NCBI GenBank assembly: GCA_964016885.1
Contig: OZ024749.1
Coordinates: 45,880,001 to 45,944,000 of the forward strand
Reading direction: 5' to 3'
Length of the DNA stretch: 64,000 nucleotides
Source of the DNA: Eledone cirrhosa
Lineage: Eukaryota
Shown here: positions 20,572 to 59,366 of the stretch, piece after piece
How the letters are laid out: the number at the start of each line of letters is the position of its first letter
Position numbering within the stretch: position 1 is the first letter of the stretch
Position numbers and translations under genes: made by a program
Notes under the pieces: generated by a model
The model's input: the letters and a program-made list of their open reading frames with translations, nothing else
Told to the model about the DNA's origin: nothing
The model's database searches: none

Positions 20572-20805
20572 TATATTTAAAAAAAAAAAACAGATAAAAG
20601 TTTATGCAAAGAATCGCTGCTTTCACCCTTAACGGGATCTTTTGAGTTTCAGAAGATCCCGTTAAGGGTGAAAGCAGCGATTTTTTGCTTAAACTTTAAT
20701 CTGTAATTTTTAAAAATATTTGCCCTACGATTCTTATATATTTGATATATATTTATCCTTAACGAGGCCTCTTCGGATTTTAGTCTTCAAATGTATTATT
20801 ATTAC
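20572..20805 (+). mobile_element. TA-embedded short element, family Y, with inverted short arm
   Basis: A minus arm (20572-20641) mirrors the plus arm aagatcccgttaagggtgaaagcagcgatt...ctttaatctg. The plus arm continues to ggattttagtcttcaaatgtattattattac-(TA)n. Confidence 0.85.
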
Positions 20806-22741: not shown

Positions 22742-22844
22742 TATAAGTATGAAATATATATATAAGTATGTTAAACAAACGAATTATTAGCCGTAAAGTG
22801 TTCGGCAACCATCGTTGCACTTTTGTTCAACACTCACAAAGGAA

Positions 22845-22884
22845 CGGTGAACTAGTTTCTAGCTTATTAGCTGTCATCAGCAGC
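22845..22884 (-). ncRNA. Minimal type I hammerhead ribozyme (left arm of inverted repeat)
   Basis: The minus strand reads gctg-CTGATGA-c-agct-aata-agct-a-GAAA-ctagtt-caccg. Stem II AGCT/AGCT is perfect; stem I is only partly paired. Confidence 0.6.
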
Positions 22885-23016
22885 TATTCCTTCCTGTCGT
22901 TTTCGGTACGCCCGGCCGACTAACTCACTCGATATGCAAATTAGGCTGCTCATCCGTTAATATGCATAAGGAAAATATATACTTTCGAATGTTCGATCAA
23001 CTCACAGGAAGATATA

Positions 23017-23057
23017 CGGTGCTGATGACAACTAATAAGCTAGAAACTAGTTCATCG
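23017..23057 (+). ncRNA. Minimal type I hammerhead ribozyme (right arm of inverted repeat)
   Basis: Stem I cggtg (23017-21) pairs with catcg (23053-57). CTGATGA is at 23022-28, stem II region caactaataagcta, GAAA at 23043-46. Stem III is the palindrome ACTAGT and the cleavage triplet is GUU. Folded by eye. Confidence 0.75.
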
Positions 23058-23408
23058 TTCCTTTGTCAGTGTTGAACAAAAGGGCAACGATGGTTGCCGA
23101 ACACTGTACGGCTAATAATTCGAGATGTTTGTTTACAAACAAATCGAGCATTATAATAAATAACTGGATTTTAACAACCTTCCAGGGGTCCGTGTAAATT
23201 TTCAATACCCGAATTACTTGACCGTTTTTTTTGGCCTATGCGAATGATTGTTTACCCATAGTCTCAGTGTCTTTAGCCTTTAATGTCTGTTATAGCTCTG
23301 GTTCATTTGAATCATTGAGCACTTGCCACACATCTCGGAGGTTGATTTTCGTTATTTCGTGGGCCGAAGTGCGAATCTCAATAATTTATGTTTATATATA
23401 TATATATA

Positions 23409-23641
23409 TAACGAAGGAAATGTGGTACGGAACCAGATGGACCATAACGCACCAACGTACTCAATACTTAGGGTAGTAGAGTGAGTAATAGGAACGAATA
23501 GGACCCCGACGGCTGGCTGAAGCTGTTTCGACGGCTAATTCTGGACTAAAAAAAAAAAAAAATTATTTATTTTTTTTTTTTAGTACAGAATTAGCCGTCG
23601 AAACGGCTTCTGCTCAGTCGTCGGGGTCCTACTCGTGCCTA
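23409..23641 (-). mobile_element. Family X copy with about 70-bp inverted arm
   Basis: The long arm lies on the minus strand (23409-23562) and an inverted short arm on the plus strand (23570-23641) ends in gtgccta-(TA)n. Confidence 0.85.
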
Positions 23642-23663
23642 TATATATATATATATATATATA

Positions 23664-34284: not shown

Positions 34285-35251
34285 GTGTCTGTGTCCGTGT
34301 ATGTATGTTTATATATATATCCTATGTAGGATTGTATTTTTTATGAGAAACCAACAAGATGAGAATCGTAAAATCTACCAAGCATCAGTATGAGTTCCAG
34401 TGAATATCGCAGTAGATATTTGTAACAATTTTGACGTTATAATCAACATAATTTTTAAAAAAATATAACATTGCTATAACAGGGCCCTAGCTTGTATAGT
34501 GCTGCTAAATGTCACACTTCTAAACTATTCCAGAATTTGCTTATCTATACAGCAAATACTCCATTTGCATCAGTGTTGACGATTGTCTCCCCAATTCTGT
34601 TAGATCCCCCGTGAGCCCCAAATTGACCCCATTGGCTGTATCCAAAGAATTGCATGCTTTATGGATGAACTCTTGTTTCATGATTTTAAAGCTCGCAGAA
34701 CTGATACATGCTAAGCCTAATTTCCACTAACATTTCTTGTTTTACTCTTGGGGTGTTTATTTTTATGTTGTCTAACATATGTCAGAGAATATTACAATAA
34801 AGCGTAACATGTAACAAAACACACAATACGAACCATCATAATTGTTCAAACACTATTGATCAGAATACATTATTGAAATTCTCTAGGACATAATATTTCC
34901 TGGCAGTTTGTCAGACGTTATTAACTTCTAGTTTTCTATTAGTTTAAAAAGTCCTCGTAATCTGACGCACATACATACACTATTTAATATACGCTCTAGC
35001 AGACACACACGCATACACACATACGCACACGCGCGCACACACCCATACACAGACACACATACACACACACACACACACACACCGCCATTGAGACAAATCC
35101 AAACATATTTTTAATAATAATATCGTAGTATAGTCATTGAACACCATGTTTTAGCCACACACATATACAATGTTAAACTCATCCACACACTGATACAAAC
35201 AGACGCAAGCACATACAAATATACATGTATCTTCATAACTATTAGTATGTT

Positions 35252-37483: not shown

Positions 37484-37789
37484 ATATATTTAATATTCCC
37501 TATCTCACATTTTCTGGATTTATGGTTTAATTATCAATTTTATTTCATTATTATTTAGGCTGAACGAAACAATTATAGTAGAAACAATTATTATTTAGGC
37601 TGAACGAAAGAATTCTCTAAATCATTAGGTAGTAACACAATATATATATATGTGTGTATATATATATATATATTTTGCTACTACCTAATGATTTAGATAA
37701 TTATTTCGTTCAGCCTAAATAATAATGAAATAAAATTGATAATTTAAGCACAAACCCATAAAATGTGTGGTAGGGAAAATTAAATATAT
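37484..37789. repeat. Diverged inverted duplication centred on a (TA)n tract
   Basis: Left arm 37484-37640 and right arm 37672-37789 match, e.g. ctaaatcattaggtagta/tactacctaatgatttag and attattatttaggctgaacgaaa/tttcgttcagcctaaataataat. Confidence 0.85.
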
Positions 37790-44960: not shown

Positions 44961-46313
44961 CATTAACAAACAATTCTAATATTAATCTATTTGACACCAC
45001 TATCATATCACCCCTATTTCCCACAAACACTATTATCACCACTCCAAAGTACTATTACTAACACTATTGCCATTACTACCCTGGAAAATGTTTGGTTCCA
45101 TCCTTTGACTTCTATTTGTTTTAAAGAGGCAGTCAACCAAGCAGCCAATTATCCTTAGCCGATCAACCACCGAATGAGTGTTTAGCCGCTGATGTGATAC
45201 GACATTTTTGTTTTATATGTTTTCCTTTTGAAATTGATATTGTTATCATCGTTGTAGTTGTTATTGTTGTTGTAGATGTTGTTGTTTTCAACCTCCCATA
45301 AGATAAAAGAAATAGAGGGATGTGATGAAACACCGAGTGCATGGGTAGCAAAATCCTCATTTGGCAGTATGAGAATAACAAAAGGAAAAGTGAAATAGAT
45401 TAACATGGTAAAAGAACAATGTTGTGCTGAATATACTGGCTGAAAATGATGATGTTGCTGGTAATGGTGCTGATACTGGTCCTTATATCAAGCCACCCAC
45501 ACACTTCCACATATCATAGTGAAATAAAATGAATAAACGAAATTAAGTTAAATTTCTCCGTAAGGGTTGTTAATATTCGGATATTAAACTAAGATAGAAT
45601 ACAATAACCAAAACACAGTCACCCAAACGCGAACACACATCAAACATTATACACACACGCAAACGCATGCGCAGAGAAGAAGACAAAAATAAATAAATAA
45701 ACAGATTAAATAAAGATGGGGTAGACATTCAATACATACAATACAACAGGAGGAAACATAATAGCACCACTGACGATGTTGCAGATGTGCAACGAAAGAA
45801 CTTTGTTAGACTATATATATGTGTTTGTGTCTATATTATATCTGTATTTTTGACCGTTGGTCAGTCAATGGCAAACATTGAAGACCGAATAAATTAACTA
45901 ATATAAAAGATACAGAAGCGAAAACCAACCAAATAGTGAATGTTTTCTAATATTAATTCTGGCAATATTATTATAACAATATGATCCTCCCCATCTATAA
46001 CAATATATATATATATATAGATATATATATATATGAAAAATAGAGAATTTGATGTGAGAAAGACGCCAACAGTAATTCATATATATAAGTGACTATTACG
46101 TTAAGATGGAAAATATTTAACGTAAAATATGGGAAAATAATCAATCCCAATATATATATATATATATAAGTATAAAGAAAAATAAATTGCTCAAGCGCAA
46201 AAATGCGATAAACATAGCTTAAAATAGGGTGATGACTCTTACAAGACTGAAAAAAATTTGCAAACGACCACTATGATGATTGAATACCGTCTGGAAGACA
46301 TGGGGTTCAATTC

Positions 46314-54450: not shown

Positions 54451-55107
54451 TATATATCAAACATCACGAGCGCTCTATCTCAAAACTATTTTTGAAAAGC
54501 ATTAGAAATGCGCAACCGGTTAAAACTTAAAACTAAAACTGAATACTAACCAATACTTATTACTAATTTATACTTATATACTTATTCCTAAATAAACTAT
54601 TTTTCACTGGGAAAAAATTCGACAGCATTTGCTTTATCTTTTTACTAATATTTCACAACTCGTGTGTCACACCTCTATTTTTTTAAAATATATATATAAT
54701 CCGTATGTAGAAGATGTGAAGCAAAGTTTAAAATACAAATTTTCAACGATATAATTCATTGGAAGCAGAGTCAAAATAATACAAATAGTAAAAACAATGA
54801 AATTAAGCAAAATACGGGTAATTCATAGTAAAACTCTTTATTTTCCGATCGTTTCTGAGTGGTAGTTCTCCGTATGTTCATTCTATTATTGATCTATGTA
54901 AAATATATTACAAATTTTAAAAGTAAGAAAATATACATACGTCTTCCCTACCCGCCGTCTTCAGAAATGATAGAATGAACATACGGAGGACTAGCCCCCC
55001 AAAACGATCGTAAAATAATGAGTTTTACTATGAATTGTCCGTATTTTGTTTAATTTCATTGTTTTTACTATTTGTATTATATATAATATATATATATTTA
55101 CTATTTG

Positions 55108-56856: not shown

Positions 56857-58220
56857 GCAGATATAGAGTGCAAGAGAGTTAACGAAACGAACTGATATTT
56901 TAATTATTAATACCGAAGTAGACACTCGTCGAATGTGAACACAGCAAAGAAATGACGACCAACATAATAGCGCAAGCAATACTATCTGATCCTCTAACAG
57001 TTCGGACGAGTTGCCATCTTTATCCAAGTGTTGATTTTTTTCATGCATACGTTCCCTATTCAAATCTACCGAAGCTCAGAAATGATTACCATTTACATAC
57101 TCATACGTGCATTAAGCCGATTATATACTTCCCACGAATATTAGAAATCATTATCACCCGAAGTTCTTTGATGTGGGATAAACAGTCAACTACCAGATTA
57201 ATAAAATGAATGTGTTTAGGGTGATTTGTCTGCGTTCTACCATCAAGTCCTACCAACGATGACTAATATAATAACGAAAAGCTCATTGTATTGAATGTGG
57301 AAGACATGTTAGACACGGCAGCTAATTTCATGTTCAATTTTATTTTTGTTGATTTGTTTGCTTTTTTTATTCAGAAAATTTTAATTTATATTGCATTTAA
57401 AGAAAATATGAAAATAACCGGATCCCATAATTGTAGTATTATATAGACAGTCTCATATCAGTCTATCTTTGTCATAAAGCCCCACACATACTTAAAGGAG
57501 CATTAGGACAACAACCTTAGTGAGTTTTAGAGTTAGCTATACGGAGTGCTCATAATTTTAAACAATTCAATAATTTGGGCAAAGACGTGTGCATTTAAAT
57601 ATGGACATACTTTATTTTCATGGAACTTACCTCCATATGAATATAGTTTGTGTTTAGTGTTATATTGTAATATACATTATACAGTTAGGAAATATTGACC
57701 GCTTTAAAATTGATTTATGTAAACACATATGAACAGATACTTCTATAAGTTAATGTAAACTGGGCAGATATGGGTTAATGGAGTTAAAATAGGTTTTGGA
57801 CACAGGATTGATAGGGTTAAAATAAATTGTATTCACATTACAGAGTGAGGGTAAAGTAAGTTTATGTAAACACGTCTGAACGTGTTATGTTAGTTCTATG
57901 TGAACAAAACAAACAAAGGTTAACAATAGTATTAATATCAATAAAAGTGAGTTGACCTGTTATAGACTTATGTAGGCAATGCATGCATTTATATAAGAGA
58001 ACACATCTACGGGAGGTTCGTATATTTTCATGTAAACCGGGCTAAACGCGTACACTATAGATATATCTAAGCAACTAAGAGCTGTGGTTACTGTGGATTT
58101 ACGTAAATGACATGTCCTAGAGTTATTAAATCGTAAATTAATAGAACTTACTACGGATTAATTTAACTGTTCCCAAACCAATCTTGGAGTACTATAGGCT
58201 AATCCACACACAATTTGATT

Positions 58221-58259
58221 GTAGTTTTTAATATATCCCGCTCCGGTAAAAAATATATA

Positions 58260-58315
<56 letters not shown>

Positions 58316-58353
58316 TATATATTTTTTACCGGAGCGGGATATATTAAAAACTA

Positions 58354-58354
<1 letters not shown>
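58221..58354. repeat. Perfect 134-bp palindrome centred on (TA)n
   Basis: gtagtttttaatatatcccgctccggtaaaaaatatataataatttta, then (TA)n, then its exact reverse complement. Confidence 0.95.
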
Positions 58355-58389
<35 letters not shown>

Positions 58390-58543
58390 ATACTTTGGGA
58401 GGGTCATGTTGCCAATAAGAAACACACGCACCAGTTGCTTTCACTTCAATTTATTATATATTTATAAATTTATAAATTTACAAATCTACAAACTTATAAA
58501 TTTCTGGTTGGTTGGTTCCACAACCAGATAGTTGTTTATATAT

Positions 58544-58588
58544 AGTCATAGTCCTTTCATCACACACTCTGTGACCTCTTCAGCGACT
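58544..58588 (-). ncRNA. Minimal type I hammerhead in left arm of the 526-bp palindrome
   Basis: Reverse-complement copy of 58697-58741. Its one substitution (agtcg) keeps stem I paired through a GU pair. Confidence 0.7.
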
Positions 58589-58696
58589 AGGGATTCCTTT
58601 CTTTGTTTCTGTGCCTTTCCTTTCTTCTGTCCTACGCCATTTTGTTGGCGTAGGACAGAAGAAAGGAAAGGCACAGAAACAAAGAAAGGAATCCCC

Positions 58697-58741
58697 AGTC
58701 ACTGAAGAGGTCACAGAGTGTGTGATGAAAGGACTATGACT
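58697..58741 (+). ncRNA. Minimal type I hammerhead in right arm of the 526-bp palindrome
   Basis: agtca-CTGAAGA-g-gtcaca-gagtg-tgtgat-GAAA-ggac-ta-tgact. Stem I 5 bp, stem II 6 bp, stem III 2 bp, triplet CUA. Confidence 0.7.
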
Positions 58742-58961
58742 ATATATAAACAACTATCTGGTTGTGGAACCAACCAACCAACCAGAAATTTATAAGTTTG
58801 TAGATTTGTAAATTTATAAATTTATAAATATATAATAAATTGAAGTGAAAGCAACTGGTGCGTGTGTTTCTTATTGGCAACATGACCCTCCCAAAGTATA
58901 ACAATATCGGTTTCAACACACGATTTCAGATAAAGAATCTTGCTAAACAAATTCAGAAACG

Positions 58962-59145
<184 letters not shown>

Positions 59146-59366
59146 TTAGATATATCCCATTCTAGGTAAAAAATATAGGAAAGATGTAGTTGAAAATATA
59201 ATTGAAGTTTTTAAAAATGTATATTTACACCAGCTTAAAACTTTGCCGGTTTTACAAGTGTCAGACTTTTCTCTCAACTTAAATTAACATTTGAGAATCT
59301 TGAAACTTATGAAACCGGCGATGTTTTAATGTATCATAAATAAATATTGTTAAAGTCGGCAATTTC

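What the first reader, a model, noticed from the sequence alone, without database searches (positions are those of the whole stretch)
58382..58907. Young 526-bp palindrome carrying back-to-back hammerheads on opposite strands
Seen: 258/262-bp arms, a 6-nt loop and only about 3 differences. Each arm has a hammerhead pointing outward, and the one substitution inside the ribozyme keeps stem I paired. A diverged relative of the outer terminus (atgatcctccccatctataacaata-(TA)n) lies at about 45980-46005. Known: Penelope-like insertions often carry an inverted, 5'-truncated copy of the 3' pLTR. Inference: this is a recent insertion. A transcript from either strand would form about 260 bp of dsRNA containing one sense ribozyme, a possible ADAR or Dicer substrate, and the DNA could extrude a cruciform.
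Basis: partly seen in the sequence, partly recalled or inferred. Interest (0 to 1): 0.78.

Follow-up and report, generated by a model that had tools for sequence, protein, structure and literature searches.

The report
Twin-copied Penelope retrotransposon palindrome
This palindrome is one of at least 286 head-to-head double copies of the ribozyme-bearing end of a Penelope-like jumping gene in this genome, and sister insertions whose two arms share private A-to-G changes indicate that both arms are likely copied from one edited RNA, each likely running off the RNA's start.

Summary
The palindrome is as described (258/262-nt arms, 6-nt loop, 3 differences, a minimal hammerhead per arm). It is the short form of an inverted pLTR pair of a young Penelope-like element (PLE). 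The family has over 26,000 end copies, 286 same-centre palindromes and an intact 4,423-bp parent. This layout, including opposite-strand hammerheads, is published, and this scan noted like palindromes in other genomes.

New here is evidence on mechanism:
- One arm is tailed, one not (42 of 43).
- 5' ends pile at a YY1-like AA(A/G)ATGGCG motif, mostly behind a non-native G (23 of 34); a sister family does the same.
- In 5 of 5 A-to-G hypermutated pairs both arms share private edits.

Best reading: one RNA is reverse-transcribed twice from the two tail-flanking sites, both cDNAs run off the capped start, and they are joined. Fold-back copying plus central deletion is the main rival. The parent RT also has a conserved ~70-aa insertion that named C-terminal-EN clades lack. 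No read-level test of this locus was obtained.

The parts
58382..58639 (-). Left arm: untailed pLTR copy ending at AACAATAT next to (TA)n
   Evidence: matches unit positions 1-255 of the intact element
58640..58645 (-). Loop; reads ACAAAA on the minus strand, native upstream sequence belonging to the left arm only
   Evidence: the same loop occurs in 5 of 50 other same-centre palindromes
58635..58643 (-). YY1-like motif AAAATGGCG (AAGATGGCG in older subfamilies and the sister family); inferred transcription-start region and 5'-end hotspot
   Evidence: motif as given for L1 in PMC5381506
58646..58907 (+). Right arm: pLTR copy starting at TGGCG
58697..58741 (+). Minimal type I hammerhead: 5-bp stem I, CUGAAGA core, extra G before stem II, 6-bp stem II with G-U at 10.1-11.1, GAAA, 1-2-bp helix III, predicted cut after 58736
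   Evidence: activity untested
58544..58588 (-). Mirror hammerhead; A>G turns the stem I closing pair into G-U
58882..58963 (+). Start of the element ORF (ATG at 58882, [27 protein letters not shown])
58908..58963 (+). 56-nt PLE tail, present on the right arm only, followed by (TA)n
58218..58357 (.). Adjacent single-copy 140-bp palindrome centred on (TA)n, 138/140 complementary; relation to the insertion unresolved
45600..46005 (+). Untailed 3'UTR + pLTR piece of a sister PLE family with its own hammerhead core (45770); left boundary approximate

Best explanation
The palindrome is a head-to-head pair of pLTR copies of a young Penelope-like retroelement in a (TA)n tract, likely made by reverse-transcribing one RNA twice, from the two sites that flank the tail, with both cDNAs likely running off the RNA's capped start at the YY1-like motif and then being joined end to end. 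Shown: family identity, tail asymmetry, the 5'-end hotspot, the G and extra-A signature at 5' ends, and shared private A>G changes in both arms of sister insertions. Inferred: that the hotspot is the transcription start, that the G is a copy of the cap, that the A>G changes are ADAR edits, that each nicked target strand primes one cDNA (a protein dimer), and the final join. The copy cannot encode the protein, and its hammerheads are passengers. Identity as a PLE inverted pLTR pair is about 0.97 likely; the confidence below is for the whole mechanism.
For: Parent: intact 1,318-aa RT + GIY-YIG ORF in a 4,423-bp triple tandem. Tail rule: 42 of 43 classifiable same-centre palindromes (50 examined), 23 of 24 and 28 of 29 inverted pairs; the sets partly overlap. 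Hotspot: 26 of 99 copies end within 17 nt upstream of TGGCG against 50 over the next 1,380 nt, about 40-fold. In a 3'-anchored set 11 of 99 end at -18..+1 and 0 at +3..+46. Arms are coupled: both in the hotspot 8, one 1, neither 15 (p 8e-6). The first non-native base is G in 23 of 34 assessable arms, against 9 of 51 other truncation points (p 4e-6). A fifth A occurs in 18 of 100 arms against 1 of 93 long copies. The sister family gives 25 palindromes at the homologous motif, several with the same G+A-run ends. In 5 of 5 edited pairs both arms share edits (Jaccard 0.66-1.0), against 0.07-0.52 between loci. In the window and in several pairs each arm holds sequence the other lacks. 11 of 50 loops have at most 1 unpaired central base. 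In vitro a Poseidon protein cuts and extends both strands, starts at the two tail-flanking sites and is modelled as a dimer (PMC11167929).
Against: No RNA 5'-end data, so the transcription start is not observed. RTs add untemplated C at uncapped ends too (recalled), so G marks run-off more safely than it marks a cap; this locus's own junction has no such G. Shared edits also follow if one arm is copied from the other's cDNA, and long palindromes can lose their centre asymmetrically (recalled), which could create arm-specific sequence. Two cDNAs on overlapping RNA need strand displacement, which is untested. A second cluster of 5' ends at the hammerhead stem I edge (7 of 99) shows that structure can also stop copying. 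One n/n exception occurs in each. Only 5 edited pairs were found. Samples are the first hits on contigs C1-C2, not random.
Confidence: 0.62

Rival explanations
1. Fold-back: one tailed cDNA reaches the RNA 5' end, its 3' end snaps back and primes a copy of itself that is resolved at the inner ATAT site; later asymmetric deletions at the centre shape the loop. This resembles the self-priming model of PMC3846280, which invokes an antisense template.
For: Explains shared edits, identical arms (27 of 42 with no substitution), the tail rule and coupling at the hotspot.
Against: The untailed arm often has upstream sequence that the tailed arm lacks: this locus, L096, L093, L100 and the edited pair at C1:18.41 Mb. 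That needs one-sided deletions of up to >1 kb. 11 of 50 centres have 0-1 unpaired bases, too tight for a priming hairpin. Edits lie on the sense strand (T>C controls gave 0 and 0), which favours a sense RNA template.
Confidence: 0.22
2. The hotspot is not the transcription start but a strong stop for the RT or a processed RNA end (a bound protein, the edge of an RNA duplex, or A-run microhomology).
For: A second cluster at the hammerhead edge; one edited zone begins at -2; similar ribozyme-edge clusters were noted by this scan in other genomes (AI notes).
Against: The motif is conserved between families whose flanks differ and matches the YY1 site that begins mammalian L1s. The G and extra-A signature is specific to this point. 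Other edited zones begin at -87 to +46.
Confidence: 0.1
3. The palindrome is itself a mobile unit (MITE-like or retrozyme-like) that is copied whole.
For: 286 copies with one centre; some loops recur 4-5 times.
Against: 27 different loops among 50; the same loop occurs with either arm tailed. In L156 both arms carry A>G in the sense orientation, not A>G and T>C as a copied hairpin RNA would.
Confidence: 0.03
4. Fold-back assembly or library artefact at this locus.
For: No read-level check was obtained.
Against: The arms differ at three places and by a tail; the flanks differ; the layout follows the same rule as hundreds of loci with distinct flanks.
Confidence: 0.03

Closest known systems
EN+ Penelope-like element insertions with inverted 5'-truncated pLTR and one-sided tail (PMC8557442 Fig. 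2 legend; PMC3846280)
   Same: pLTR overlapping the ORF start, head-to-head inverted copy, tail on one end, (TA)n targets, partial tandems, Asn-rich insert in the ORF.
   Different: The tail is 56 nt rather than 30-40. A discrete, conserved 5' endpoint makes hundreds of near-perfect palindromes. Edited copies tie both arms to one RNA.
Minimal hammerheads of metazoan PLEs (PMC4209133)
   Same: Extra base between positions 9 and 10.1, long helix II, short helix I, vestigial helix III; dual motifs 100-700 bp apart on opposite strands are reported there.
   Different: This copy has G-U instead of G10.1-C11.1 (the family majority has C). Loop 3 is GA or AA, not a Watson-Crick palindrome.
Poseidon element PAc in vitro (PMC11167929)
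   Same: Two RT start sites flanking the tail, both target strands extended, AT-rich targets, hammerhead cleavage not needed.
   Different: Different clade; the parts read do not address inverted pairs or run-off at the RNA start.
L1 twin priming and the L1 YY1 start motif (passages in PMC9148063, PMC5381506)
   Same: Two target strands prime on one RNA and give an inversion; CAAGATGGC lies at the element's 5' end.
   Different: L1 twin priming copies non-overlapping parts of the RNA (recalled); here the same part is present twice.
Nematis clade of PLEs (PMC8557442)
   Same: C-terminal GIY-YIG, CCHH, short CX4CxxC linker with 7 residues to the next Cys.
   Different: About 70 extra residues between RT motifs A and B', and a G(A/G)(A/P)IG motif B' not found in the supplement searched; clade not placed by a tree.

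Membership tests
EN+ Penelope-like element (C-terminal EN) | Single ORF with RT and C-terminal GIY-YIG endonuclease | tested here: met
   1,318-aa ORF, YVDD at 943, VVY..YIGET at 1213-1235; Pfam gives only a weak RVT_1 hit on one copy and none on the intact one
EN+ Penelope-like element (C-terminal EN) | pLTRs from tandem or partial-tandem arrangement | tested here: met
   4,423-bp triple tandem
EN+ Penelope-like element (C-terminal EN) | Optional tail and adjacent inverted 5'-truncated copy | tested here: met
EN+ Penelope-like element (C-terminal EN) | CCHH motif in EN and telomerase-like RT | tested here: met
   Two Cys between the GIY and YIG halves and two downstream His; the top three fold matches are TERTs, TM 0.44-0.47
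EN+ Penelope-like element (C-terminal EN) | Promoter, TSS and intron in the pLTR | tested here: inconclusive
   Indirect only: 5'-end hotspot and G signature; intron not tested
Nematis clade | Reduced CX2-5CxxC linker | tested here: met
   7 residues from CxxC to the next Cys, as in Nematis_C4 and _Cr
Nematis clade | No insertion in the RT fingers | tested here: not met
   Motif A Asp to motif B' Gly is 128-135 aa in 63 of 66 proteins, against about 61 in PenelopeD by my count from Fig. S1 and 63 in a Hydra-like copy in L036
Nematis clade | Phylogenetic placement with reference PLEs | not tested
   No reference sequences were held
Neptune clade | Long linker after CxxC | tested here: not met
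   7 aa here against about 20 in the Neptune rows
Hydra clade | No CCHH, CxCX5C linker, DKT motif | tested here: not met
   CCHH present, CX4CxxC, DKS
Naiad clade | N-terminal EN and no hammerhead | tested here: not met
   EN is C-terminal and a hammerhead is present
PLE minimal hammerhead | CUGANGA, GAAA and UH core with helices I and II | tested here: met
   stem II shows two compensatory changes against the sister family, whose stem I pairs poorly
PLE minimal hammerhead | Unpaired base between positions 9 and 10.1 | tested here: met
   G here, U in the sister family
PLE minimal hammerhead | G10.1-C11.1 pair | tested here: not met
   G-U in both arms of this copy; C in the two commonest family variants (141 of 226 copies)
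PLE minimal hammerhead | Palindromic 15.2-16.2 and loop 3 for dimer formation | tested here: inconclusive
   G-C around a GA or AA loop; cofold did not give the dimer fold
PLE minimal hammerhead | Self-cleavage | not testable with these tools
   No 5'-end cluster at the predicted cut site among 99 copies
Non-LTR retrozyme | Head-to-tail tandem hammerhead monomers | tested here: not met
   Head-to-head pair only; definition from abstracts
MITE or foldback unit | Fixed palindromic consensus copied whole | tested here: not met
   27 loops among 50, both tail polarities

The most novel reading that the evidence does not exclude
ADAR hyper-editing fossils act as single-molecule barcodes showing that PLE inverted repeats are made by double reverse transcription of one RNA. 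Run-off at a YY1-set capped start mass-produces perfect 260-bp hairpin loci that seed dsRNA in a cephalopod-type genome. The parent belongs to an undescribed C-terminal-EN PLE clade with a telomerase-length insertion in the fingers.
Probability: 0.4. Interest if true: 0.78.

Novelty: new variant of a known kind. Interest (0 to 1): 0.56.

Why it matters
The locus itself is an ordinary dead PLE insertion. The family matters because PMC8557442 names the origin of PLE tandem/inverted structures and tails as unresolved, and PMC11167929 leaves the steps after priming unvalidated. The one-tail rule, the capped-end signature and the shared edit barcodes narrow those steps to two testable models and predict the promoter position. 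Octopus has exceptional hyper-editing and near-perfect dsRNA potential, and Penelope is heavily edited in lizard (PMC5625713). Thousands of inverted PLE pairs are a concrete candidate source of such dsRNA, and edited RNA is shown here, by inference, re-entering the genome.

Tried and rejected
Rfam gave no hammerhead hit; the microRNA hits below gathering score reflect the perfect hairpin only. The isolated ribozyme region does not fold better than shuffles (z +0.43 to -1.02). No read-level evidence was obtained, so the reality of this single locus, its transcription and its editing stay open. The run search found three runs of one sample with 53-78% of the words, possibly the assembly's own sample, and smaller shares in other organisms; none was laid, so none is used. 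One search's 5'-end table was discarded because two reference copies contained an inverted arm; it was redone, and only the tail calls are used. Hammerhead cleavage as the source of 5' ends was rejected (no end within 3 nt of +91 among 99). A target-site duplication cannot be read in the (TA)n flanks. The left arm's A>G lies at +56, edited in 5 of 6 edited arms, but it is on one arm only and cannot be assigned to editing. A row labelled 'test' was a wrong coordinate and is ignored. PDB sequence searches gave only weak bacterial RT hits.

Full report
OBSERVATION. The palindrome is in the sequence as described. Arms are 58382-58639 and 58646-58907, the loop is TTTTGT, and there are two substitutions and one 4-nt indel, all on the left arm relative to the family majority. 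Each arm has a CUGAAGA...GAAA core pointing outward that folds with stems I and II. Rfam does not report it. The right arm continues for 56 nt (58908-58963) before the (TA)n; this tail and the last 26 nt of the arm are the first 27 codons of an ORF.

FAMILY. The window lies in a 3.0-Gb assembly. The arm has 41 near-full-length matches at 94-100% among 40 scored of 354 candidates, including its own two arms. There are 5,089 exact matches to the arm's first 26-mer and 26,757 to a 26-mer at its 3' end, which also covers older subfamilies. Upstream of other copies lie a 3'UTR and a GIY-YIG ORF. [quoted passage not shown] The nearest named protein is from Octopus vulgaris at 70%, so the host is probably a cephalopod (inference). 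The piece at about 45600-46005 belongs to a sister family (2,697 candidates) with its own hammerhead core.

THE PALINDROME IS A RECURRENT PRODUCT. 286 loci have the same centre with a 0-14-nt loop, against 0 for the control. I examined the first 50 listed. They show 27 different loops. One arm is tailed and the other not in 42 of 43 classifiable cases, with 7 unclassified, and 27 of 42 have no substitution between arms. This locus, with two, is young but not among the youngest. The tail rule also holds in wider pairs: 23 of 24 and 28 of 29, in partly overlapping sets. The exception is a pair whose long arm runs on through the ORF and ends untailed at the next pLTR.

5'-END HOTSPOT. Among the first 100 hits on C1 (99 parsed), 26 end within 17 nt upstream of TGGCG, 50 over the next 1,380 nt and 23 beyond, about 40-fold enrichment. 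In pairs, both arms end there in 8, one in 1 and neither in 15 (expected 3, 11, 10; p 8e-6). A sample anchored at the 3' end (99 of the first 100 hits) gives 11 ends at -18..+1, none at +3..+46, 7 at the hammerhead stem I/core edge and none at the predicted cut site. The hotspot sequence is AAAATGGCG, or CAAGATGGCG in older subfamilies and AAGATGGCG in the sister family. PMC5381506 gives CAAGATGGC as the YY1 site with which almost all mammalian L1s begin. Of 100 palindrome arms, 34 have an assessable first non-native base, and it is G in 23. Other truncation points show G in 9 of 51 (read by hand; p 4e-6). A fifth A occurs in 18 of 100 arms but in 1 of 93 long copies, and only 1 of 24 CAGAAAAATGG hits has native upstream sequence. 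The sister family, whose upstream differs, gives 25 palindromes at the homologous motif, several with the same G+A-run ends. That RTs add C opposite a cap is recalled, not from a call. I infer a capped RNA start; it is not observed.

EDITED COPIES AS BARCODES. Some copies carry dense A>G changes on the sense strand, for example 32 between -2 and +146 with the upstream 800 nt almost untouched. Two edited patterns gave 4 and 8 hits genome-wide, and T>C control patterns gave 0 and 0. In a screen of 317 distinct copies, which included those fetched by these patterns, only A>G showed large outliers. In unselected samples they are rare: 3 of 99 arms and 1 of 50 palindromes. As with a 5' G are changed less often (23 of 109 against 177 of 481, p 0.0016), and a 3' G preference is not significant (p 0.15). 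This matches the ADAR signature and the weak downstream-G preference reported for octopus (PMC5625713). Five pairs have both arms over the edited zone, and all five share edits (both/only a/only b: 30/2/1, 31/2/1, 25/5/8, 10/0/2, 11/0/0). Different loci overlap far less (Jaccard 0.07-0.52, 15 comparisons). One of the five, L156, is a same-centre palindrome like this one. Identical positions and polarity exclude editing after insertion and exclude two independent RNAs. Three further edited or weakly edited copies had no overlapping partner arm.

MECHANISM. Shared edits allow two routes: two cDNAs from one RNA, or one cDNA folded back on itself. Two observations favour the first. Each arm often holds sequence the other lacks: here the tail on the right and ACAAAA on the left; at C1:18.41 Mb the tailed arm covers +47..+315 and the untailed arm -316..+255; likewise L096, L093 and L100. 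Also, 11 of 50 centres have at most one unpaired base. A Poseidon protein in vitro cuts and extends both target strands, starts at the two sites flanking the tail, is modelled as a dimer and does not need hammerhead cleavage (PMC11167929). I therefore commit to this: each target strand primes at one of the two sites; on the RNA's first pLTR-ORF junction both cDNAs run off after about 260 and 315 nt and are joined; priming at a downstream junction gives long, uneven pairs. Fold-back plus asymmetric loss of the centre (recalled behaviour of long palindromes) remains possible.

THE RIBOZYMES. They fit the PLE minimal hammerhead of PMC4209133: an extra base before stem II, long helix II, vestigial helix III. 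Stem II covaries with the sister family. This copy has G-U at 10.1-11.1, such motifs cleave poorly as monomers per that paper, and a read-through transcript would bury the sense motif in a 256-pair hairpin. They are most likely inert passengers. That paper already reports dual motifs 100-700 bp apart on opposite strands. siRNAs from inverted Penelope copies are known in transgenic Drosophila (PMC3681739).

CLADE. The linker is Nematis-like, but motif A to motif B' spans 128-135 aa in 63 of 66 proteins, about 70 more than in canonical PLEs and at the position of the IFD. PMC8557442 assigns the IFD to Naiad/Chlamys, TERTs and some Coprina, not to C-terminal-EN clades. The insertion is confidently modelled (mean pLDDT 92) and the best fold matches are telomerases; I did not test whether it superposes on the TERT IFD. 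Five diagnostic peptides were absent from that paper's supplement text, which shows only selected proteins. I do not file the element in Nematis, Neptune, Hydra or Naiad.

LITERATURE SEEN. PMC11167929 and PMC4209133: parts 1-2 of 4. PMC8557442: sections 3 and 11, passages, supplement part 54 and two supplement searches. PMC3846280, PMC3681739, PMC5625713, PMC5381506 and PMC9148063: passages. bioRxiv 10.64898/2026.07.22.740005: abstract and outline only; its supplements are closed and may bear on PLE clades. Searches listed no paper on edited barcodes, twin priming, a YY1 start or an IFD-bearing C-terminal clade in PLEs. The library lacks most subscription papers, so this does not prove absence. 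This scan's own notes describe like palindromes and clustered 5' ends in other genomes, and none matched the edit or YY1 word searches.

VERDICT. Its family supplies unusual evidence on how such insertions form. Interest 0.56.

Noticed in passing
G000 C1:2.088-2.090 Mb (L276/L277), C1:18.413 Mb (L278/L279), C2:177.13 Mb (L280), C4:189.33 Mb (L282), C2:103.77 Mb (L156), C4:162.10 Mb (L275): A>G hypermutated genomic copies of the pLTR, 10-59 changes each, likely ADAR-edited RNA that was reinserted.
   Followed up: yes
L086:1153-5106 and P0001-P0065: Conserved ~70-aa insertion between RT motifs A and B' in a C-terminal-EN PLE lineage with 65 homologues; possibly an unnamed clade.
   Followed up: partly
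window 58218-58357: Single-copy 140-bp palindrome centred on (TA)n beside the insertion; its arm is 72% like 59144-59172 on the other flank. Origin unexplained.
   Followed up: partly
window 22772-23135: 374-bp imperfect palindrome (78%) with CTGATGA motifs on opposite strands (22880 -, 23022 +); perhaps an older inverted pair of another PLE family.
   Followed up: no
window 20583-20711, 23488-23642, 37484-37789, 54776-55080: Further short palindromes (68-88% arm identity) from the self-comparison.
   Followed up: no
window 34518-34655 (-) and 33804 (-): Weak match to the parent RT (E 6e-6) and a nearby CTGACGA...GAAA motif; maybe a decayed PLE piece.
   Followed up: no
C1 loci: Second cluster of 5' ends at the hammerhead stem I/core edge (7 of 99), as this scan noted in other genomes.
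   Followed up: partly
L036:2011-4067 (-); L031:7713-8100 (+): Neighbouring PLEs of other types: one Hydra-like (RWK, DKT) and one with a long Neptune/Naiad-type linker and GIY-YIG.
   Followed up: no
P0063: A predicted Octopus vulgaris protein named dynein regulatory complex subunit 6-like contains a 79% identical piece of this RT; gene-model chimera or exonisation.
   Followed up: no
L009, L029, L194: This family inserted in the (TA)n directly beside sister-family pLTRs, consistent with a shared target.
   Followed up: no
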